A stretch of DNA of 64,000 nt from Eledone cirrhosa (Eukaryota): assembly GCA_964016885.1 (NCBI GenBank), contig OZ024740.1, positions 312,356,001 through 312,420,000 on the forward strand, read 5' to 3'. Below, in pieces: positions 9,132 to 60,493 of the stretch. How positions within the stretch are numbered: the first letter of the stretch is position 1; the number at the start of each line of letters is the position of its first letter. The translations under genes were made by a program, and so were the position numbers. The notes beneath the pieces were generated by a model. That model was not told the DNA's origin. It ran no database searches and was given only the letters and a program-made list of their open reading frames with translations.

Positions 9132-9302
9132 ATGTCTGAAGTGCCAACCTCACAGACCAGTGAGATTGAAAACGGCTCGCAGGAGATATCTATTGTGCAT
9201 GTGACAATACCTAACCAACCAGTCCAAGTGCAATCTGTTATACAATCTAGCCATCAACCATCAGTGATACAGACAACTGGCCCAAATGTTCAGACTATTC
9301 AG
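9132..9302 (+). CDS. CREB1: CREB/CREM/ATF1-family bZIP factor, coding exon 1 (start, Q1 glutamine-rich region)
   Basis: Acceptor ttttttccag ends at 9123. An in-frame TAG two codons before the ATG fixes the start. Encodes MSEVPTSQTSEIENGSQEISIVHVTIPNQPVQVQSVIQSSHQPSVIQTTGPNVQTIQ, whose VQVQSVIQ..QPSVIQ matches CREB Q1. Donor CAG|GTAGGT, phase 0. Confidence 0.9.
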
Positions 9303-10313: not shown

Positions 10314-10396
10314 GTAGCTGCAGTAAATGATGATATGACAGATGGTGCTGAAGGAAGAAAGAGGAGAGAGATATTAGCTAGAAGACCTTCATATCG
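10314..10396 (+). CDS. CREB1: CREB coding exon 2 (KID N-half with PKA site RRPSY)
   Basis: Acceptor ttcttgcag|. Encodes VAAVNDDMTDGAEGRKRREILARRPSY(R). The Ser133-equivalent codon TCA is at 10389-10391. Donor CG|GTATTT, phase 2. Confidence 0.95.
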
Positions 10397-13509: not shown

Positions 13510-13643
13510 TAAAATTTTGAATGAATTATCGTCCGAGTGTCCACCTATCAAAATTGAGGAATCTACAAATCAAGACGGTCAGGAGACCACTGAAGCAGCT
13601 TCAAATCTCAGTACAAATTCTATACAGTACCAGCCTGCAACAG
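13510..13643 (+). CDS. CREB1: CREB coding exon 3 (KID C-half)
   Basis: Acceptor ctctttcag|T completes CGT. Encodes KILNELSSECPPIKIEESTNQDGQETTEAASNLSTNSIQYQPAT. Donor CAG|GTGAGT, phase 1. Confidence 0.95.
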
Positions 13644-22254: not shown

Positions 22255-23358
22255 CATCATCACCGTTTTACGTCCATTCTTCCACGCTAGCATGGGTTAG
22301 AAGGGTTGTCCTGTTGTGGGCAGTGCCTGGTCGGCTGACCATGTCTTGCTCATACAGGAACTGATTCTGGCTTGATTTCTACAGCTAGATCCCCTTCCTA
22401 ACACCAACCTCATTCACAGTGAGTGCTGGGTGCTTTTTTCCGTGGCACCTACACGTCCACTTTACAGTGTGGGCTGGGTGCTTTTTTGCTGTGGCACCTC
22501 CACGACCACTTTGCAGTGGGAAGGGGTGGGGGCATATAGTCTATACGATTCAGCTTCGGCTTGTACCCGTGGGGGGTCGGGTCTTCTGTATTACTGCGTG
22601 ATGCCAGAGGTCATGGTTGTGTGCCATTGCCTTTGAGAGGTGTAATTGGGTAAGGTCGGCTTTTATCACCTCATCCCAGGTCTTCTTGGGTCTCCCCACT
22701 CCGTAGCTTCCATCGACTTCTAGTGCTCTGCACCTTTTTATGCAGCTGTCATCCTTCATACGCATCACATGTCCATACCAACGCAACCGCCTCTCCTGCA
22801 CACGACATTTGATTCCTCTTATGCTTAGTCTCTCTCTCAATTCGTTTATGCTTTGCCGTTTGCGTATATTACTATTACACATCCATCGGAGCATGCAGGC
22901 TTCGTTTCTTTCTAATCTACGCAAGTCTTCTACAGACAGCGCCCAGGTCTCACTACCATGTAACATTGCTGTTTGTATACACACATCATACAGTCTGACT
23001 TTCATTTTGACAGAAAAGCCTTTTGCAGCTAGCAGTGGCAGTAGCTCCCTGAATTTCTTCCATCCCGTTCTTACCCTAGTTATTGTACTTTCCGAACACC
23101 CACCTCCGCTGCTAATTCGGTCACCTAGGTAGCAGATGCTGTCTACTGTTTCTACAAAGCCCTCCCAGAGTTTGGTGGTACTTGTTTCCTGTGGCTGTTT
23201 GCTGCTTGCTGTCCCAGCGCAGCTGCTGCATGTGAAGCCTACATTCTTAGTTAAGCTTCCTGAGATCCCACTACATCTCTTGTGTACCCATTGTTTGCAT
23301 TTGGAGCAGAGGATGGAGTTCCTACCTACACCTTTCCTACATACCGAGCAGGCCATTT

Positions 23359-25097: not shown

Positions 25098-27948
25098 ATC
25101 TCATCATCATCATCATCGTTTAACGTCCATGTTCCACGCTTGCATGGGTTTGGATGGGAGTTTTCCCACTTGAGGCAAGAGTGGTTGTCTTGCTCGCATA
25201 GGACTGTCTGGCGGGTTTTCTACAGCTGGATGCCCTTCCTAACACCAACCACATTTACAGTGTGGGACTGGGAGGTTTTTACCGTGTTGCCTACACGGCC
25301 ACATTACAGTGTGGACTGTGTGTTTTTTGTCGTGACACCTACACAATCTCATTTGTTTCGGCCTGGATGTTGTGGCACCAACATAGCTTTACATTGAAAG
25401 GGGCGGTGTGGATGGGGTGGGGGTGGTGGGACGGGGGTGTATTTGTTAGAGATGCCTACTGACTAGTAGGTTTTACTTTGTATTTAGGTAAGGCGAGTCT
25501 TCTCTGTTACTGAGTACCGCCAAAGGTCTCGGTCCAGTGACATTGTCTTGGAGAGGTGTAAGTATGTGAGGTCGGAATTTATCAGCTCGTCCCAGGTTTT
25601 TCTGGGTCTGCCTACTCCGTGGCTACCGTCTATCTTTATTGCCCTGCACTTTATTATACAGCTGTCGTCTTTCATGCGCATTACGTGACCATACCAACGT
25701 AGCCTTCTCTCGAGTAAACAACATCTGATCCCTCTTATTTCTAATTTTTCCCTTAGTTCGTTTATGCTTTGCCGTTCGCGTATATTACTATTACACATCC
25801 AGCGGAGCATGCAAGCTTCGTTCCTCTCTAGTCTGCGTATATCCTCTGTACACAATGCCCAGGTCTCACTGCCATGCAACATTGCTGTTCGTATGCAGGC
25901 ATCATATAACCTGCCTTTCATTTTTAGGGAGAACCCTTTAGCGGCTAATAGTGGTATAAGCTCTCTGAACTTTTTCTATCCAGTTCTGACTCTAGCTACT
26001 GTACTTTCGGAGCACCCTCCCCCACTGCTGATTTTGTCACCCAGGTAACGGAAGCTGTCCACTATTTCTATAGAACCCTCTGCGCAATTGAAAGAGCTAG
26101 CATTCTGTGGGCACTTGCTGCTACTTATTGCACCAGAGCACCGGCCACATGTAAAATCTGTGTTCTTAGTTAGCTTACCTGTGATCCCTCTACATCTTTT
26201 ATGCACCCATACTTTGCATTTGGGACATAAAATGGAGTTTCTACCTACGCCTTTCCTACACACTGAGCATGGCCATTTCCCGGAAGGGACCGGCGCCTTA
26301 TTTTCTTTCCTACAAACTAGAACTTTAGTCTTAGCCAGGTTAATTTTAAGGCCTTTTGATTCTAGGCCGTGCTTCCATGTTTGGAATTTCTTCTCTAGCT
26401 CGGCCATTGATTCAGCTATGAGCGTTAGATCATCTGCGTATAGGAGTTCCCATGGGCAGCCGGTTTTGAACTCCTCTGTTATAGCCTGAAGGGCAATAAT
26501 AAATAGTAGGGAGCTAAAAACAGAGCCCTGATGGACACCAACTTTTACGCTAAACTCTTCACTATATTCGTTGTTAATTCTAACCTTGCTGACTGTTTCT
26601 TTATACATGGCTTGTATAGCTCTCACAAGCCATTCGTCAACACCTAGTTTTCTAAGAGCCCACCAGATAATGGAACGGGGGACTCTGTCGAAGGCTTTCT
26701 CCAAGTCGACAAAAGCTAAGTATAGGGGTTTACTTTTGGCTAGGTACTTCTCCTGTAGTTGTCGTACAATGAAAAGAGCGTCTGTGGTACTTTTGCCTGA
26801 CACAAACCCGAACTGCATTTCATCTAGATCAATTCTCTCTCTGATTAATTGCGCTATTACTTTTTCCGTGACCTTCATGACCTGGTCGATTAATTTAATG
26901 CCTCTATAGTTACTCCTATCTAGGGCGTCTCCTTTACCCTTATAACAGTTAACGATGATGCTGCTACGCCAGTCCTTCGGAACAGCCCCATTCTGTATGA
27001 CTTGGTTTACTATCCGGGTGACCATGGTGTGTCCCACCGTTCCAGAGGCTTTCAGCATCTCAGCAACTATTTCCGAAGGCCCATTGTTATTATATCATGA
27101 CTCATACACTGTTTATTTTCCTGACATTTGTACATTATTCTATGTACTATACATGCACCTTTGATGAGTTGTAGTGCACCTGAGCACTGTACACATTAAT
27201 TTCATTATTATTATTATTATTATTACCCGTCTTCATATCTTTGATTGCCTTACTTATTATACTACCTTCGACTAACACTGCTGGTCCCTCTATTGGGTCG
27301 ATGTGGGGGAGACTGTCTTTCTCCCATTTATTCTCCTCATTTAGTAGCCTTTCGTAGTGACACTTCCAAGCTACCTTCTTATCAGCGTCAGTGATGGCAA
27401 GTACGTCATCATCGTTAAGTACACACTTCTCCCCGACAATATCATGGTTTTCCTTGACACATTGCCTAGCAATCCTGAACACCTCACGTTTTTGGTCCTC
27501 GCGTTGTAGAACATGCTTGAACTTTCTTTCCTCTGTTTCTCTTCTTGCGAAGTACACTTGTCTCCTAGCTTCCCTCCTGGCCACTTGATAGTCTTCTCTA
27601 CTTCCCCCATCCCGCCATGCTTTCCAAGTCTGCTTTTTGGCCTTGATTGACCCCTCCACCTTACTGTTCCACCACCATGTTACTCTCCTCCTGCCTACAG
27701 GCTTGCTCCAGCCACAGACTTCGTCTGCCGCCATCAGCAAGTTTGCTTTCAGGAATTCCCACTGTTCCTCTATATTGTACGACTCTAATTGCTCTTCCTT
27801 ACTGTCGAAAGCATCAAGTAATATGCTTTGAAATTTATTTCTGGCTGTGGGATCCTTTAGCTTCCATATTTTTCTCTTCTGCTGTCTAGTACGTCTCGTC
27901 CTGACTATGAGGTCGCTAATTATCAGTCTATGTTGGGAGGTGCATTCT
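25098..27948 (-). mobile_element. RTE-clade LINE, 5'-truncated (family B), RT domain disrupted
   Basis: RT motifs NYRGIKL, QFGF, FVDLEKAFD, GVHQGS and LLYADD. TGG->TAG stop at 25976-25978. Nested insertion at about 27083-27222. (GAT)n tail. Confidence 0.95.
27083..27222 (+). mobile_element. 3' tail of CR1/L2-type LINE nested in the RTE
   Basis: GATGAGTTGTAGTGCACCTGAGCACTGTACAC..(ATT)n, the same 3' end as the element at 58563-59597. Confidence 0.85.
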
Positions 27949-29014: not shown

Positions 29015-29974
29015 TATAATGTTTATGATCATGTCCATTGTTTTTAAGTTGATTTACTGGTAGCTTGCTATATTTTACAGACATAGTCAATAAATCAATA
29101 TTATTTCTTCAGAAATACTTTTCACTTATGCTAAACCATACTGTCAACTTGTTCATTTTCTCACTTGAGGTTTTTTCATCAGGTCTTTTGATTCCATAAT
29201 AGTGTTCATTTACTTATCATTATTTATATTCAGTTATATTTAGTATTTTCTTTTTTGTTTTGTTTTCAACAATATTTGAAGCTAATAGAAATACTATACC
29301 TCTGTTTTACTTCACATTCACTGTTCTAATCTGATCATTGTTAGAGATATATTGGATATTTGAATTTGATATATTTCTGTTTTCATTTTTTGGCTTATTT
29401 AATAGTTCACTATTTATTTTGTTAATTCTGTGTCTGTTTCATATGTTAAATTAAAGGGTTCCCTTGATTAGTATTTAGGTTCTTTTAGCTTGTCTAGAAA
29501 TGCTATTTAATTGGTTAGCAGTTCTTCTCTGAGTGGTTTGTTGTAATGATCTTTTTGTACAATGTCTTCTGTTTTTACTGTAATTTTACTCTTTCTTCAG
29601 TATGAGGATCATGGAGTTTTGATATATTTCTACATGATCAAATTTTTAATATCTTCAATGATAATTTGCAACAACTACATTGCTTGAAATCTAAGCATGA
29701 AATCAACAGTTTTTATGAGATTTTGTCACTAATGTCTAAGTGAAAAATTGACTCTTGTTATTTGATCTTGTCTTCATGCAGAGCAACCAATACTGATTCA
29801 CAACAAAGACAACAAAATCTCCTAGTTTGATTTTTTTTTTGTTGCCATTGTTGATTTACATATAAATTAATTTATAATAGACTTTATTTTTAAAACAAAC
29901 TTACCATAAAGCAGTTTAAAATGTATGAATGTTTATTTTGTTTTCCTTTTTTTTCTTCTCTTCTTAAATTTTAG

Positions 29975-29998
29975 TATACAGCCAGATGGAAGGCTTGC
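29975..29998 (+). CDS. Candidate 24-nt cassette microexon of CREB (VYSQMEGL)
   Basis: Long polypyrimidine tract 29932-29974 ending TTTTAG, then 24 nt, then GTAAGT. Phase 1-1 and stop-free in the CREB frame. Confidence 0.6.
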
Positions 29999-30657
29999 GT
30001 AAGTATATTCTTAAAGTGGTTTGATATATTTGCATATGGCGTAAGTATATTCACCTCTCCAACTAGATGTGTCCCTCAAAAAGTGAACTTTTTAAATCTT
30101 TGAAGAATTGTGGCAACATAGTTATATCAATTCTTTGGATTTGGTCTTTGGTATTTCTCTAGATAGTGCATGAATTAGGAAAAAAGCACTTTTAGGACAT
30201 ATTTAGGTAACTCTAGATTGTTTATTTATCATCATAATTATACAAGTTGGTTAGTTTCTAATTTTGTACGAATCTGAGTTAAGGAAGACTTCTCATTTGC
30301 TCTGAAAGAGTTTTTGATACTGTAATTTTCGGTTCTATTTGTGTGAGTGATTTTGTAAGCCTTTCACAACCTCATTCGTTATCTATGTTTTATGTTGTTT
30401 TTATTTTGTCATTATTTACAGATTGGTAATTTGTTGTTGTTATTACTTCATTAAACATGTTCTTCTTCATATACTGTGGCAATGATCTGATTAAGTTGAT
30501 CTACTATAAATAATAATAGTTTCTAAAATACCTAAATATAGCTCTAATATTTGAAAATTGAAATAGTAGCTTTCACTGTATTTTTTACTACAGAAAATAC
30601 AGCAAAAGCTACTATTTCAATTTTCAAATCTCAATATAAACACATGTGCTTGTTTAT

Positions 30658-32265: not shown

Positions 32266-35200
32266 TTAACATTCAGTTTCCCTGGTAGCAAAGGATTATA
32301 TTTGTTAATCAATTGGTTATAAAACTTAAATATTTTGTGATTAGTAATACATGAGAAATCTGTTCAAACAATTAGAACCCATAGCCTTATCTTGAAAAAA
32401 TCTGCCATTATTTAGTAGCCAGTGTTTAAAATTATAGCACTAGTATAATGAGCATTATTTCCTAATTATGTTCCTTTTTAAATGAAACCATTTTATCTTA
32501 ATCTCAAGGACACTATACACTTCAAATCATCATCAATATATTTTAATTGGATAATATGATTAAATTGTTTAAATTACAGCTGCTTGCATCTTTTTCAAGC
32601 ATTGCTGAATTAAGGTTCGTGTTTTGCTTTTGTCAATAGTATTTATGCCTAGGCTGCTTATTTTATGAAATCTATTACTTAAATTTTTTCCATTATAAAT
32701 TTATTTTAATTACTTGTTAAATAAGTGATCATGAAGCCAATAATAACCTTACTTATTTTGCCCTAATAACAATTAAATCACACATCTTGTTATTTTCAGT
32801 CACAAATATTTCATTCTTTATCTCTAATGTATTTCTTCTGTCCACACTACACTGTATTCCAACTTCTTTACAAAGGGTTTGTGTTTACTTAGAATCCACT
32901 CTCCGTACTACTTACCTCTTTCATCTGGACATTAGCAACAAATTTTTTAGTTGCTCTAGCTCTTCTCCATTCCTCTCAATTTTGCTGTCTTCTTGAGACC
33001 GTGTAGCTTGTAGCAGTGTTCAACATCATCATCTTCATTTAACGTCCATCTTCCACGCTAGCATGGGTTAGACGGGTGACCGTTAGAGGCAAGGTTGGTC
33101 GGGTGACCGTATCTCCCTCATATAGGACTATCTGGCAGGTTTTCTACGGCTAGATGCCCTTCCTAACACCCTCTTGCTTCTTGCACTCCTATCACATTGA
33201 TACTGTTGTCAGAAAGGCTGAGATGTATGCTATTCTGAACAGTTTGCTCCACTTTGTATTCTCTTTTACATATATACAAGACTCTTCAAACATTCTTGAG
33301 CTCTTTCTCAAATGGTCTTTATCCAGTCAACCATAACCTTTACCATAATTGGATTGTTTGATCACTGCACAATGAAAATGAACTATCCTACATTATTCTA
33401 CTGCACAGCAACCTCTGCCTTCAAATTCTCTCATACTTACAGTCACCTAAAAACTTTGACCATGGTTGGCGTAAGTATTTTCAAGCTAAGTTCCCTGCCT
33501 ACAACTACACTAGTCTTTCATACTAGATGTTTTCGATCAGTTTACTCCATTGAAGTATATACTGATAGGACTCTCTTTCTCACTCAAGTCTAGCAAACCT
33601 TTCTACCTTAAATAATGTACTACTGTTATTTCTAACTAAACATACTCCTACTCAAATAGTATCAATTTTCATTTGGCCATAACCTTCTACACATAAGATC
33701 ATCCACTATATACAACCTAGATACTGCATGCCAAACTTGTACTGCTGCCATGAACAGCTATCTCAAAAAGATCCTTTAATGAGGACATAGCAACCAAGAC
33801 TACTTCAATCACAAGATGCAATCACTAACCATAGGAAAATAGTATTATTGCATTATATGTGCATATATACAAACAATACTTAATCACATGTGCAAGATTT
33901 TGAGGGAGCCATTTTAAGATTGATTTTTATTTTAGTTTAAAGAAGAAAAAATTAATTGTAATATAGATTGCAACTTGGGTTTAATTATACATAGTTTATG
34001 ATTTCTTTTATTTTGGAATTGTAGCTATCATTCTTGTTTGAAAAAGGTTTTCAAAGCTGCACAATACAAAGAGTTTATATTTATATAAAAATCTTCCATT
34101 ATAATTCTGTGTAAGGACTTTTAAGTTACACTCCAAATACCAGCTTAATAATTATAAAGTTCCGTACATTACTAAATCTCTTGATTTTGTTCAAAATTAT
34201 TTGAAAATCATTAGCAGTATCTTTCATTAGTAACAAACTTCCATAAAGAATGTGATAACTAGTGTATGACATAATGTGTAGCTATTATACTCTTTATATA
34301 TCTTCTCTTTTACAGTACAATGCAATTTAAATAATTTTTTTTAGTTAGATTTCATTCATCATTCTAATTACCCAGCTGCAGAGTGAATATTGTTGTTGTT
34401 GTTGTTTAGCGCTAGAACAGCCCCATTTAAGAAGACTTATGGTCAACCATGACTATCCCCTCTTTTTTTAAGGCATAATGTATTTAAAATGTTACATTAA
34501 TTTTTAACTCTGTAGGGTGTAATTTGAAGTAAGTTTGGCTACTATTTCTTGTAGATTGAACCACCTTTCTTTCCTCATCATGGTTCTTGTATTTAAAACA
34601 ACTATATATTATATATGGCAAAATTTAAACATAGAGTCAAATTATAATTGTAGAATAAGTTGCTTAATAGATTCACATATATTTGTTTAATAATACTGAT
34701 AAACCTTAGGATCTATGAACATTAAACAATGTCTAAAATAGCACAATAAAGACCAGATTGCTTTATTGTTGTCATCATGCTAGTATGTAAACTCTAGCAA
34801 TTTAAAGCTATCACCACAGTTACTTTTGGTGGTCTTAGGCATTTTCAGTTAGTATGTGATTAAGACCCATTGTCTCTCCATTGCTGGCAGACAAACCCTC
34901 TTAACTTAGAAAATAGGGATTCAAGAAACCTCTTTGATGTGTCTGCTCTACCAACATTAAAAATTTAATATTTTATTCTGATTACCATTTACTATTGTCT
35001 CCTAAATAATATGTTATGAATTTTAAACACATATATTTTTAGGGATTTATTTTGTTCTTTGTTTTCCAAATAATTCTTTTATTTGGAAATCTTGATTTTC
35101 AGAAATCCCTAGTTTCTTCTCTTTCTTTCTCCCATGTTTACGATGAATTTGGTGGAATATATAGTGTTATTTAAAGTGTTCATATTTGTTTCTCCTTTTA

Positions 35201-35672: not shown

Positions 35673-35852
35673 CATTAGTCCCATCTGGTGCCATCCAAAT
35701 AACCACACATCCAGAAGGAACCGTGGCCGGTCAAGGTCTTCAAACGTTAACAATGACCAATGCAAATCCATCATCAGGTGCTGGTACAACATCCGGCACT
35801 GCCACTATTGTACAATATGCCCAAGGTCCTGATGGACAATTCCTAATTCCTG
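35673..35852 (+). CDS. CREB1: CREB coding exon 4 (Q2 region)
   Basis: Encodes (A)LVPSGAIQITTHPEGTVAGQGLQTLTMTNANPSSGAGTTSGTATIVQYAQGPDGQFLIP, with the CREB-typical GLQTLTMTNA and TIVQYAQ..DGQ motifs. Donor G|GTAAGT, phase 1-1. Confidence 0.95.
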
Positions 35853-38769: not shown

Positions 38770-38923
38770 TCACAGTTGGTGGTGGAAATGTACAAGCTTA
38801 CCAGATTGCAACATCTTTGCCTCAAGGAGTTGTTATGGCAACTACTGGAAGTCCAATTACCAGTCCTCAACAATTATCAGAAGAAGCAGCTCGGAAACGG
38901 GAACTTCGTTTATTAAAAAACAG
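38770..38923 (+). CDS. CREB1: CREB coding exon 5 (Q2 end, start of basic region)
   Basis: Encodes (V)TVGGGNVQAYQIATSLPQGVVMATTGSPITSPQQLSEEAARKRELRLLKN(R). Donor AG|GTAAGA, phase 2. Confidence 0.95.
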
Positions 38924-41104: not shown

Positions 41105-41249
41105 AGAGGCAGCCTCAGAATGTCGACGGAAGAAGAAAGAATATGTGAAATGCCTGGAAAATCGAGTATCTGTTCTGGAAAATCAAAACAAAACATTAAT
41201 AGAAGAATTGAAGGCATTAAAAGAATTGTATTGTCAAAAAGATGGATAA
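41105..41249 (+). CDS. CREB1: CREB terminal coding exon (basic region and leucine zipper)
   Basis: Acceptor tttgtag|A. Encodes EAASECRRKKKEYVKCLENRVSVLENQNKTLIEELKALKELYCQKDG*, nearly identical to the known CREB bZIP. Confidence 0.97.

Positions 41250-46555: not shown

Positions 46556-46559
<4 letters not shown>
44960..46559 (-). mobile_element. RTE-clade LINE, 5'-truncated (family B), near-identical to 25098-26710
   Basis: Colinear with the intronic copy. 2-nt deletion frameshift at about 46079. Flanked by (TA)n arrays on both sides. Confidence 0.93.
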
Positions 46560-46605
<46 letters not shown>

Positions 46606-46678
46606 CACACATATATATATATACACTCATATACATATATATACACACACACACATATATATATACACACATATATAT

Positions 46679-46711
<33 letters not shown>

Positions 46712-46718
46712 AATATAT

Positions 46719-46755
<37 letters not shown>

Positions 46756-46944
46756 AATATATAATATATATATAATATATATATATATATTATATATATA
46801 TATATATTATAATATATAATATATATATATATATAATATATAATATATATATATATATAATATATATATATATATATAATATATATATATATATAATATA
46901 TATAATATATATATATATTATATATATATATATATAATATATAT

Positions 46945-47029
<85 letters not shown>

Positions 47030-47064
47030 ATATATATATTATATATATATATAATATATATATT

Positions 47065-47096
<32 letters not shown>

Positions 47097-47226
47097 ATAT
47101 ATATATTATATATATATATAATATATATATTATATATATATATAATATATATATTATATATATATTATATATATATATATATAATATATATATATTATAT
47201 ATATATATAATATATATATTATATAT

Positions 47227-47327
<101 letters not shown>

Positions 47328-47494
47328 ATATATATATATATATAATATATATAATATATATATATATAATATATAATATATATATAATATATATATATAT
47401 AATTATAATATATATAATATATATATATATAATATATAATATATATAATATATATATATATAATATATATATAATATATATATATATAATATAC

Positions 47495-47543
<49 letters not shown>

Positions 47544-47900
47544 CATATATATATACATATATATATATATATACATATATATATACATATATATATATAT
47601 ATACATATATATATACATATATATATACATATATATATATATATACATATATATATACATATATATATACATATATATATATATATACATATATACATAT
47701 ATATACATATACATATATATACATATATATATACATATATATATACATATATATATATATATACATATATACATATATATACATATACATATATATACAT
47801 ATACATATACATATATATATATACATATATATACATATATATATACATATATATATATACATATATATATACATATATATATATATACATATATATATAC

Positions 47901-47963
<63 letters not shown>

Positions 47964-47984
47964 TATATACATATATATATATAT

Positions 47985-48108
<124 letters not shown>

Positions 48109-48536
48109 ATATATACATATATATATACATATATATATATACATATATATATATATACATATATATATACATATATATATATATACATATATATATACAT
48201 ATATATATATACATATATATATATATACATATATATATACATATATATATACATATATATATATATACATATATATATATACATATATATATATATACAT
48301 ATATATATACATATATATATATACATATATATATATATACATATATATATACATATATATATATACATATATATATATATACATATATATATACATATAT
48401 ATATATTTACATATATATATATTTACATATATATATACATATATATATATATACATATATATACATATACATATATATACATATACATATATATATACAT
48501 ATACATATATATACATATACATATATATACATATAC

Positions 48537-48586
<50 letters not shown>

Positions 48587-48662
48587 ATACATATACATAT
48601 ATATACATATACATATATATATATATACATATATATATACATATACATATATATATATATAC

Positions 48663-48846
<184 letters not shown>

Positions 48847-48852
48847 ATATAC

Positions 48853-49440
<588 letters not shown>

Positions 49441-49474
49441 CATATATGTATATATACATATATGTATATATACA

Positions 49475-49524
<50 letters not shown>

Positions 49525-49555
49525 CATATATATATATACATATATATATATATAC

Positions 49556-49587
<32 letters not shown>

Positions 49588-49625
49588 GTATACATATATA
49601 TATGTATACATATATATATGTATAC

Positions 49626-49661
<36 letters not shown>

Positions 49662-49667
49662 GTATAC

Positions 49668-49826
<159 letters not shown>

Positions 49827-49840
49827 CATATATATATATG

Positions 49841-49907
<67 letters not shown>

Positions 49908-49967
49908 GTATACATATATATATATGTATACATATATATATATGTATACATATATATATATGTATAC

Positions 49968-50154
<187 letters not shown>

Positions 50155-50167
50155 TACATATATATAC

Positions 50168-50232
<65 letters not shown>

Positions 50233-50247
50233 CATATATATATATAC

Positions 50248-50294
<47 letters not shown>

Positions 50295-50337
50295 CATATA
50301 TATATATACATATATATATATACATATATATATATAC

Positions 50338-50384
<47 letters not shown>

Positions 50385-50385
50385 C

Positions 50386-50448
<63 letters not shown>

Positions 50449-50449
50449 C

Positions 50450-50609
<160 letters not shown>

Positions 50610-50617
50610 GTATATAC

Positions 50618-50674
<57 letters not shown>

Positions 50675-50695
50675 CATATATATACATATATATAC

Positions 50696-50750
<55 letters not shown>

Positions 50751-51137
50751 CATACATATATACATACATATATATATATATACATACATATATACATACA
50801 TATATACATACATATATATATATATACATACATATATACATACATATATATATATATATATACATACATATATACATACATATATATATATATACATACA
50901 TATATACATACATATATATATATATACATACATATATACATACATATATATATACATATACATATATATACATATATATATACATATACATATATATACA
51001 TATATACATACATATATATATACATATATATATATATATACATATATACATATATATATACATACATATATATATATATACACATATACATATATATACA
51101 TATATACATACATATATATATATATACATATATATAC

Positions 51138-51168
<31 letters not shown>

Positions 51169-51237
51169 CATATATATATATACATATATATATATATACA
51201 TATATATACATATATATATATACATATATATATATAC

Positions 51238-51400
<163 letters not shown>

Positions 51401-51425
51401 TATACATATATATATATATATATAC

Positions 51426-51676
<251 letters not shown>

Positions 51677-51682
51677 CATACA

Positions 51683-51718
<36 letters not shown>

Positions 51719-51724
51719 CATACA

Positions 51725-51760
<36 letters not shown>

Positions 51761-51768
51761 CATACATA

Positions 51769-51854
<86 letters not shown>

Positions 51855-51859
51855 CATAC

Positions 51860-51890
<31 letters not shown>

Positions 51891-51898
51891 TATGTATG

Positions 51899-51929
<31 letters not shown>

Positions 51930-51958
51930 GTTTATATATATATATGTTTATATATATG

Positions 51959-51990
<32 letters not shown>

Positions 51991-52023
51991 TGTATATGTA
52001 TGTATATATATATATATATATAT

Positions 52024-52092
<69 letters not shown>

Positions 52093-52120
52093 CATACATA
52101 TATATATATATAATACATAC

Positions 52121-52209
<89 letters not shown>

Positions 52210-52210
52210 G

Positions 52211-52434
<224 letters not shown>

Positions 52435-52437
52435 GGG

Positions 52438-52813
<376 letters not shown>

Positions 52814-52824
52814 CATATATATAT

Positions 52825-52865
<41 letters not shown>

Positions 52866-52866
52866 C

Positions 52867-53057
<191 letters not shown>

Positions 53058-53064
53058 TATATAC

Positions 53065-53241
<177 letters not shown>

Positions 53242-53248
53242 CATATAC

Positions 53249-53351
<103 letters not shown>

Positions 53352-53352
53352 C

Positions 53353-53431
<79 letters not shown>

Positions 53432-53440
53432 CATATATAC

Positions 53441-53503
<63 letters not shown>

Positions 53504-53540
53504 CATATATACATATATATATATATATACATATATACAT

Positions 53541-53667
<127 letters not shown>

Positions 53668-53668
53668 C

Positions 53669-53739
<71 letters not shown>

Positions 53740-53768
53740 TACATATATATATATATACATATATACAT

Positions 53769-54107
<339 letters not shown>

Positions 54108-54108
54108 C

Positions 54109-54157
<49 letters not shown>

Positions 54158-54164
54158 CATATAT

Positions 54165-54210
<46 letters not shown>

Positions 54211-54228
54211 GAATATATATATATATAT

Positions 54229-54282
<54 letters not shown>

Positions 54283-54341
54283 ATATATATATATATACAT
54301 GTATATATATATATATAATATACATGTATATATATATATAT

Positions 54342-54379
<38 letters not shown>

Positions 54380-54391
54380 ATATATATATAT

Positions 54392-54446
<55 letters not shown>

Positions 54447-54457
54447 CATATATATAT

Positions 54458-54657
54458 NNNNNNNNNNNNNNNNNNNNNNNNNNNNNNNNNNNNNNNNNNN
54501 NNNNNNNNNNNNNNNNNNNNNNNNNNNNNNNNNNNNNNNNNNNNNNNNNNNNNNNNNNNNNNNNNNNNNNNNNNNNNNNNNNNNNNNNNNNNNNNNNNNN
54601 NNNNNNNNNNNNNNNNNNNNNNNNNNNNNNNNNNNNNNNNNNNNNNNNNNNNNNNNN
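54458..54657. other. Assembly gap (200 N)
   Basis: Run of exactly 200 n. Confidence 0.99.
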
Positions 54658-59778: not shown

Positions 59779-60493
59779 TCATCATCACCGTTTTACGTCC
59801 GTTCTTCCACGCTAGCATGGGTTAGATGGGTTGCCCTGTTGTGGGCAGTGTCCGGTCGGCTGACCATGCTTTGTCATACAGGAACTGATTCTGGCTTGAT
59901 TTCTACAGCTGGATGCCCTTCCTAACACCAATTTACAGTGAGTGTTGGGTGCTTTTTTCCGTGGCGCCTACATGTCCACTTTACAGTGTGGACTGGGTGC
60001 TTTTTTGTCGTGACACCTACACGACCACTTTACAGTGTGGGTTGGGTGCTTTTTTGCTGTGGCACCTCCACGACCACTTTTCAGTGGGAGGGTATGAGGG
60101 CATATTGTCTATATGCTTCAGCTTTGGCTTGTAGCCATGGGGGGGAGGGTCTTCTGTATTACTGCGTGACGCCAGAGAGGTGTAATTGGGTAAGGTTGGC
60201 TTTTATCACCTCATCCCAGGTCTTCTTGGGTCTCCCCACTCCGCGGTTTCCATCGACTTCTAGTGCTCTGCACCTTTTTATGCAGCTGTCATCCTTCATA
60301 CGTATCACATGTCCATACCAACGCAACCACCTCTTCTGCACACAGCATTTGATTCCTCTTATGCTCAGTCTCTCTCTCAATTCGTTTATGCTTTGTCGTT
60401 TGCGTGTATTACTATTACACATCAATCGGAGCATGCAGGCTTCGTTTCTTTTTAATCTACGCAAGTCTTCCACAGACAGCGCCCAGGTCTCAC
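59779..60493 (-). mobile_element. RTE-clade LINE 3' fragment (family A)
   Basis: Homologous to 22255-22955. WYGHVIRM and GRPKKTW motifs. (GAT)n tail. The 5' end abuts (TA)n. Confidence 0.9.

What the first reader, a model, noticed from the sequence alone, without database searches (positions are those of the whole stretch)
29932..30052. Hidden 24-nt CREB microexon with a duplicated donor that would create a poison isoform
Seen: within the 22-kb intron, a strong pyrimidine tract and TAG precede TATACAGCCAGATGGAAGGCTTGC|GTAAGT. Inclusion adds VYSQMEGL between KID and Q2 without frameshift, including an in-frame ATG. The 14-mer GCGTAAGTATATTC is repeated 42 nt later (30039-30052). Using that second donor reads ..LRKYILKVV-TGA, giving a KID-containing, bZIP-less or NMD-targeted product. 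Known: CREB/CREM genes use small cassette exons, premature stops and internal starts to switch between activator and repressor forms (mammalian CREM, Aplysia CREB1 isoforms). Inference: this may be a lineage-specific three-way splice switch, possibly neural.
Basis: partly seen in the sequence, partly recalled or inferred. Interest (0 to 1): 0.7.

Follow-up and report, generated by a model that had tools for sequence, protein, structure and literature searches.

The report
Octopus CREB microexon with masked donor
An octopus memory-linked gene, CREB, has a real optional 24-base exon that is already in public transcript records; the exact copy of its splice signal 42 bases later is predicted to be hidden in an RNA hairpin, so it likely makes little or none of the proposed truncated form.

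Summary
The sequence observation is exact. The 24-nt exon (29975-29998) is real but not new. A published O. vulgaris brain cDNA joins exon 3, this exon and exon 4 through the first donor. Octopus and Sepia records hold include/skip protein pairs (296/288 aa and 299/291 aa). The duplicated 14-mer is more than chance, and one low-depth contig of a relative carries both copies. The poison isoform has no support: 0 of 176 fetched proteins carry its ending, a weak test because NMD products are rarely annotated. The spacer (30023-30033) is a near reverse complement of the donor. It is predicted to pair with donor 2 and hide it (unpaired probability 0.00-0.04; post hoc p about 0.01), and in nascent RNA to pair first with donor 1. 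Best reading: an ordinary include/skip microexon whose spare donor is likely silenced by structure, the relic of a small template-switch duplication. A selected RNA strand-displacement switch is not excluded (about 0.18). Neural specificity is untested.

The parts
9132..9302 (+). CREB first coding exon (Q1)
   Evidence: tblastn to P0118; boundaries and joined translation
10314..10396 (+). CREB exon with first half of KID (RRPSY)
13510..13643 (+). CREB exon 3 (second half of KID and linker), ends in phase 1
29594..29888 (+). Upstream intron flank alignable in two relatives (about 10% substitutions plus indels)
   Evidence: records 9 and 17
29932..29974 (+). Polypyrimidine tract and TAG acceptor; 58-nt AG exclusion zone; no UGC within 130 nt upstream of the exon
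29975..29998 (+). 24-nt in-frame cassette microexon (adds 8 aa, VYSQMEGL)
   Evidence: O. vulgaris cDNA junction; include/skip proteins
29997..30010 (+). Donor 1 14-mer (cut after 29998); the donor seen in use
30022..30024 (+). In-frame TGA, the only stop in the 66-nt extended exon
30023..30033 (+). Anti-donor: near reverse complement of the donor 11-mer; predicted to pair with donor 2 (or with donor 1 before donor 2 is made)
   Evidence: prediction only
30039..30052 (+). Donor 2, exact 14-nt copy; no use observed; predicted 96-100% paired
30167..30172 (+). Single TGCATG (Rbfox-type motif, name recalled) 169 nt downstream of the exon; significance untested
35673..35852 (+). CREB exon 4 (Q2)
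38770..38923 (+). CREB exon 5 (Q2 end, start of basic region)
41105..41249 (+). CREB last coding exon (bZIP)

Best explanation
This is a two-way include/skip 24-nt cassette microexon of the octopus CREB gene, spliced at the first donor, and the exact second donor 42 nt downstream is likely kept silent because it is predicted to be buried in an 11-bp hairpin with the spacer. SHOWN: inclusion via donor 1 (O. vulgaris brain cDNA); include and skip protein records in Octopus and Sepia; the repeat; the complementarity of the spacer to the donor. PREDICTED: the hairpin and its preference for donor 2 by 3-4 kcal/mol. INFERRED: the donor, inverted copy, donor layout arose by a short template-switch or templated-insertion event and was tolerated because the new donor came with its own mask. 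INFERRED: the 8 extra residues lengthen the KID-Q2 linker and at most tune activation, with KID and bZIP intact. A stop-containing isoform would be a minor leak cleared by NMD.
For:: the PMC2722649 supplement cDNA reads exon 3 | 24 nt | exon 4; it came from a supra-oesophageal mass library and codes 296 aa; the window's exons translate to 296 aa (include) and 288 aa (skip), each 3 residues from P0118 and P0117; 7 of 16 coleoid-type proteins spanning the junction include the exon and 9 skip it; Sepia pharaonis has 299/291-aa records; 0 of 176 proteins have the donor-2 ending; donor 2 unpaired probability 0.00-0.04 in 12 of 12 window/temperature settings, against 0.25-0.61 for donor 1. Only 2 of 546 intron spacers and 4 of 500 shuffles mask it as well. 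Duplex -9.9 kcal/mol, reached by 32 of 4361 intron 28-mers and 19 of 2000 shuffles. (PMC3413131): of two strong donors in HeLa assays the downstream one is increasingly used beyond 30 nt and about 100% at 45 nt or more, so an exposed donor 2 at 42 nt should win; masking would explain why donor 1 products are what is seen; the one stem change in the relative (30028 A>G) keeps pairing as G-U.
Against: The hairpin was found post hoc and is only predicted. Folding of the whole region is unremarkable (z 0.21 for 151 nt; z 0.18 for 96 nt; local hairpin z -2.28, 7 of 200 shuffles). One of 10 control donor-flank tests (exon 1 donor, upstream flank) gives an equally strong duplex, -9.8. Donor 2 is 14/14 identical while the inverted copy differs at about 5 of 14 from a perfect complement (Fisher p 0.04), and it is unchanged in the relative (neutral expectation 0.12-0.23). 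Both lean towards selection rather than a pure relic. Protein collections under-report NMD isoforms. The two-donor rule comes from mammalian assays, not molluscs. The cDNA is from another species, whose intron I could not read.
Confidence: 0.55

Rival explanations
1. Selected RNA strand-displacement switch. The anti-donor first masks donor 1 in the nascent transcript. Donor 2 then acts as a decoy strand that takes the anti-donor and frees donor 1, so elongation speed, temperature or an RNA-binding protein sets microexon inclusion.
For:: predicted pairing of the anti-donor with donor 1 is 0.96-1.0 for transcripts ending at 30035-30045, and switches to donor 2 (0.98-1.0) from 30056. Donor 2 is 14/14 intact here and in the relative. 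29962-30068 has 4 differences in 107 nt against 29 in about 290 upstream (Fisher p 0.06).
Against: Equilibrium folding of truncated RNAs is not kinetics. The masked window is only about 20 nt of transcription. The same layout follows from a single mutational event with no selection. There is one relative, one contig at depth 4.6, and no two-sided compensatory change.
Confidence: 0.18
2. One reading: regulated use of donor 2 gives a 66-nt stop-containing exon that yields a 145-aa KID-only protein or NMD.
For: Donor 2 pairs with U1 as well as donor 1 does (-8.3 vs -7.6 kcal/mol). The 42-nt spacing is near the range where the downstream donor wins. Both donor 2 and the TGA are kept in the relative. 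Melting the hairpin would give a simple on-switch.
Against: No product in 176 proteins. A near-length search with a 141-aa KID-only query returned 1 protein among 40 candidates at E 1e-15 or better, and it was not this form. Predicted masking. The spacer's coding sequence shows no sign of constraint (K>N at 30015).
Confidence: 0.12
3. Donor 2 binds U1 snRNP without being cut and so helps define the very short exon, as the downstream U1 site does for human PAH exon 11.
For: Precedent in PMC5933811 (abstract). Perfect +1..+8 U1 complement. A 24-nt exon is short for ordinary exon definition (recalled).
Against: The predicted hairpin covers exactly the U1-binding bases. It does not explain identity at -2, -1 and +9..+12.
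Confidence: 0.08
4. The hairpin is a chance feature of AT-rich sequence. Donor 2 is ignored for other reasons, such as exon-bound factors.
For: Post hoc p about 0.01. One of 10 control flanks reaches a similar duplex energy. Whole-region z about 0.2.
Against: The complement covers precisely the duplicated donor and sits between the two copies; 2 of 546 and 4 of 500 nulls match it.
Confidence: 0.07

Closest known systems
Octopus CREB 296/288-aa isoforms (UniRef C0KKU6_OCTVU, cDNA FJ617443; XP_029638655.1 vs XP_029638680.1) and Sepia pharaonis CREB1 299/291 aa (CAE1228142.1 vs CAE1228140.1)
   Same: Same exon, position, phase and donor; the octopus peptide is identical and the cuttlefish one keeps Q-M-x-G-L.
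   Different: Three substitutions elsewhere in the protein. These records say nothing about the second donor or the hairpin.
Hairpin-masked 5' splice sites of MAPT exon 10 and SMN2 exon 7 (PMC11802352, passages)
   Same: A local stem covers a donor's U1-binding bases.
   Different: There the true donor is masked and the structure is established by experiment. Here a duplicate donor is predicted to be masked, and one anti-donor can pair with either of two identical donors.
Aplysia CREB1 alpha/beta giving CREB1a, 1b, 1c (PMC5772390, passages); mammalian CREB gamma and CREM cassette exons (PMC3240583, passages; CREM recalled)
   Same: One CREB gene diversified by alternative splicing.
   Different: Those events yield repressor or cytoplasmic proteins. 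This exon keeps frame, KID and bZIP. None of the 5 Aplysia records read has an insert at this junction.
eMIC/SRRM4-dependent neural microexons (PMC8797185, section 10)
   Same: Short (24 nt), frame-preserving, long AG exclusion zone, long pyrimidine tract with UCUC.
   Different: No UGC near the acceptor; very long flanking introns; neural bias untested.

Membership tests
CREB/CREM/ATF-1 gene | pKID domain with RRPSY and C-terminal bZIP | tested here: met
   A bZIP-exon search gave one match at E 0.001 or better in the genome.
Alternative cassette microexon | Very short exon with canonical AG/GT ends, frame-preserving | tested here: met
   24 nt
Alternative cassette microexon | Both inclusion and skipping found in transcripts | tested here: met
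   Inclusion: cDNA. Both forms: Octopus and Sepia records and Logan-derived proteins. Shown in relatives, not in this species' own RNA.
eMIC/SRRM4-type neural microexon | UGC motif close to the 3' splice site | tested here: not met
   Nearest upstream TGC is at -132
eMIC/SRRM4-type neural microexon | Long AG exclusion zone and UCUC-rich pyrimidine tract | tested here: met
   58-nt AG-free zone; tract score 0.88
eMIC/SRRM4-type neural microexon | Neural-biased, eMIC-dependent inclusion | not testable with these tools
   No tissue-resolved reads; one brain cDNA only
Poison (AS-NMD) alternative 5' splice site | Stop codon more than 50 nt upstream of the last junction (rule recalled) | tested here: met
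   350 nt
Poison (AS-NMD) alternative 5' splice site | The alternative donor is actually used | tested here: inconclusive
   0 of 176 proteins; a weak test for NMD products
Poison (AS-NMD) alternative 5' splice site | Strong conservation of the poison segment | tested here: inconclusive
   One relative keeps donor 2 and the stop; p 0.06-0.16 against the flank
Poison (AS-NMD) alternative 5' splice site | Isoform rises on NMD inhibition | not testable with these tools
   Needs experiment
Structure-masked splice donor (MAPT/SMN2 type) | Stable local stem over the U1-binding bases | tested here: met
   Predicted only: -11.8 kcal/mol; 96 of 4361 and 19 of 2000 nulls as stable
Structure-masked splice donor (MAPT/SMN2 type) | Compensatory base changes, or mutational disruption and rescue | tested here: inconclusive
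   One one-sided change (A-U to G-U) in one relative
Tandem exon duplication | Spacer homologous to acceptor plus exon | tested here: inconclusive
   p 0.02-0.58 over 5 scoring schemes and 4 nulls

The most novel reading that the evidence does not exclude
A donor / anti-donor / decoy-donor triplet works as a co-transcriptional strand-displacement timer. The microexon's donor is hidden for about 20 nt of transcription and then released by an identical decoy. This would couple octopus CREB isoform choice to polymerase speed or water temperature, and melting or A-to-I editing of the stem would expose a poison donor as an off-switch.
Probability: 0.18. Interest if true: 0.65.

Novelty: new member of a known kind. 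Interest (0 to 1): 0.3.

Why it matters
The exon itself matters little as news, because it is already catalogued. It is still a conserved, unstudied isoform difference in a memory-linked transcription factor of cephalopods. The published octopus CREB qPCR primers lie downstream of it (the forward primer matches exon 4) and cannot see it. If the hairpin is functional, the locus would be a very compact natural test of how RNA structure overrides the preference for the downstream of two identical donors, and of splicing control by strand displacement in a cold-blooded animal.

Tried and rejected
No RNA holder listed for exon 4. In one search, runs X19 and X15 laid no piece on the 66-nt extended exon. 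The shortest piece listed was 31 nt, so the 24-nt exon could not show, and a part without cover proves nothing. The exon 3 / microexon / exon 4 joints were not tested on reads or contigs. A degenerate microexon-plus-donor pattern in metagenome contigs gave 5 loci, none with a pyrimidine tract or a similar flank, so all were taken as chance; no decapod intron was obtained. Decayed tandem duplication of acceptor, exon and donor (47-nt unit with TTC microhomology): suggestive by eye, not robust. Other acceptors at 29982 and 29986 give exons of 13, 17, 55 or 59 nt, all frameshifting. Editing of the TGA to TGG would make the 66-nt exon read through in frame, but the A has a 5' G, which ADARs disfavour (recalled), so it is rated unlikely. 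The in-frame ATG has C at -3 and no record starts there (0 of 19 read), so an ICER-like start is not supported. Rfam: 19 matches, all below gathering score; the TLS-PK5 hit over the region (E 0.097) is taken as chance. 29960-30080 has one match in the genome, so it is not a mobile repeat as far as that search shows. In one search two control donors were misplaced by 4 and 1 nt; one search corrects them and is the one cited. Literature searches listed no paper on this exon or its second donor; most subscription papers are not in the library. The bioRxiv paper 10.64898/2026.09.05.749416 covers O. bimaculoides tissue splicing and has 0 main-text hits for CREB; its supplements were not seen and may list this exon.

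Full report
OBSERVATION. The window holds a CREB gene with pKID and bZIP, and a bZIP-exon search finds one match in the genome. Seven coding exons with canonical ends translate to 296 aa with the microexon and 288 aa without it, each 3 residues from the Octopus records P0118 and P0117. The 14-mer repeat is not chance: 15 of 34,667 comparable 14-mers recur within 100 nt, and the other 14 sit in four other repeat clusters. The same 14-mer occurs 6 times in 3.0 Gb, two of them here.

THE MICROEXON IS REAL AND ALREADY ON RECORD. The supplement of PMC2722649 (passages seen) gives an O. vulgaris cDNA from a supra-oesophageal (brain) library that codes 296 aa. It joins exon 3 to the 24-nt exon and then to exon 4, that is, through donor 1. 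The cluster look-up shows 296/288-aa pairs named from O. vulgaris, O. sinensis and O. bimaculoides, and a 299/291-aa pair in Sepia pharaonis with the insert VLGQMDGL. Of 16 coleoid-type proteins spanning the junction, 7 include and 9 skip the exon; no non-cephalopod protein among the 157 then held has the motif. Unnamed Logan proteins nearly identical to the Sepia ones show both forms (skip on 58 and 1 contigs, include on 6 and 1; contig counts are not expression levels). The exon therefore predates the octopod-decapod split (about 270 My, recalled). It lacks the UGC near the acceptor that marks eMIC-dependent neural microexons, though it has the long AG-free pyrimidine tract. Neural bias could not be tested.

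THE SECOND DONOR. It is as good a U1 partner as donor 1 (-8.3 vs -7.6 kcal/mol against a recalled U1 5' end). Its use would give a 145-aa product with the stop 350 nt before the last junction. One contig of a relative (run X24, depth 4.6, so single differences may be errors) covers 29962-30068 with 4 differences and no gaps. The three listed differences are 29994 (synonymous, also in the O. vulgaris cDNA), 30015 and 30028, so donor 2 and the stop are unchanged. Against 29 differences in about 290 nt upstream this is only weak evidence of constraint (Fisher p 0.06-0.16; chance that copy 2 is untouched 0.23, or 0.12 with the free part of copy 1). No product of donor 2 appears in 0 of 176 proteins or in a near-length search (1 hit among 40 candidates, not this form). 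These tests are weak for NMD targets.

In mammalian assays the downstream of two strong donors wins increasingly beyond 30 nt and almost wholly at 45 nt or more (PMC3413131, passages). An exposed copy at 42 nt should therefore damage the exon, yet donor 1 products are what is on record. Folding offers a reason. The spacer 30023-30033 is a near reverse complement of the donor and forms an 11-bp stem with donor 2, extended by 3 more pairs. Donor 2 is predicted 96-100% paired in 12 of 12 settings, donor 1 39-75%. Nulls: 2 of 546 intron spacers and 4 of 500 shuffles mask as well; duplex energy is matched by 32 of 4361 and 19 of 2000; hairpin energy by 96 of 4361 and 19 of 2000. Against this: the test is post hoc, whole-region z-scores are about 0.2, and 1 of 10 control donor flanks reaches -9.8 kcal/mol. 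The relative's only stem change keeps the pair as G-U. Because the donors are identical, the anti-donor can take either one. In truncated transcripts it pairs with donor 1 (0.96-1.0 at ends 30035-30045) and moves to donor 2 once that is made (0.98-1.0 from 30056).

MECHANISM. Most likely (0.55): an ordinary include/skip microexon, with a spare donor silenced by its own hairpin. A direct repeat with an inverted copy between is the layout expected from a short template-switch or templated insertion (recalled), which would be tolerated because the new donor arrives masked. The unequal decay (0 of 14 changes in the direct copy, about 5 of 14 in the inverted one, p 0.04) does not fit a single neutral event well. 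It keeps alive a selected strand-displacement switch (0.18), a regulated poison donor (0.12), a non-cut U1 enhancer site like PAH exon 11 (0.08; PMC5933811 abstract) or a chance hairpin (0.07). A decayed whole-exon tandem duplication was tested and is not robust.

COMPARISON AND NOVELTY. The exon is a member of the known Octopus/Sepia CREB isoform pair. It does not work like Aplysia CREB1b/1c (PMC5772390, passages), because KID, Q2 and bZIP all stay. The hairpin works like the donor-masking stems of MAPT exon 10 and SMN2 exon 7 (PMC11802352, passages), but membership needs probing or covariation that I could not obtain. Six searches (listings seen) showed no paper on this exon or its second donor. 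The supplements of a 2026 preprint covering octopus tissue splicing were not seen.

VERDICT. Observation confirmed; interpretation partly supported. Known microexon, unsupported poison arm, and one new, testable structural prediction. Interest 0.3.

Noticed in passing
window 30545-30633: Near-perfect 89-nt palindrome (-42.4 kcal/mol) with sub-threshold hits to miRNA-hairpin models; several contigs of run X19 match part of it and run on unlike. Probably a MITE-like repeat.
   Followed up: partly
CREB exon 3/exon 4 junction in P0017, P0050, P0146, P0059, P0065, P0066, P0087: Unrelated inserts of about 2-15 residues recur at this same KID-Q2 junction in bivalves, gastropods and ticks. The linker seems to be a tolerant splicing hotspot, which argues for modest functional effect.
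   Followed up: partly
P0001, P0120, P0119: Octopus RefSeq already lists other CREB forms: bZIP-less (249 aa), KID-less with a different N-terminus (248 aa) and Q1-less (232 aa). These are better candidates for repressor-type isoforms than the donor-2 product.
   Followed up: no
window 46559-54457: About 7.9 kb degenerate (AT)n array next to a 200-N gap at 54458-54657.
   Followed up: no
window 22416-22518, 25249-25344, 59927-60086: Related 48-49-nt tandem units at three places, probably parts of one dispersed repeat family.
   Followed up: no
window 33443-33470: Another AG...GTAAGTAT candidate exon (28 nt, frameshifting, pyrimidine score 0.72) in the same intron; no support seen.
   Followed up: no
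window 29975-30007: The microexon start is predicted to pair weakly with donor 1 itself, which may be why donor 1 is only about half unpaired.
   Followed up: no
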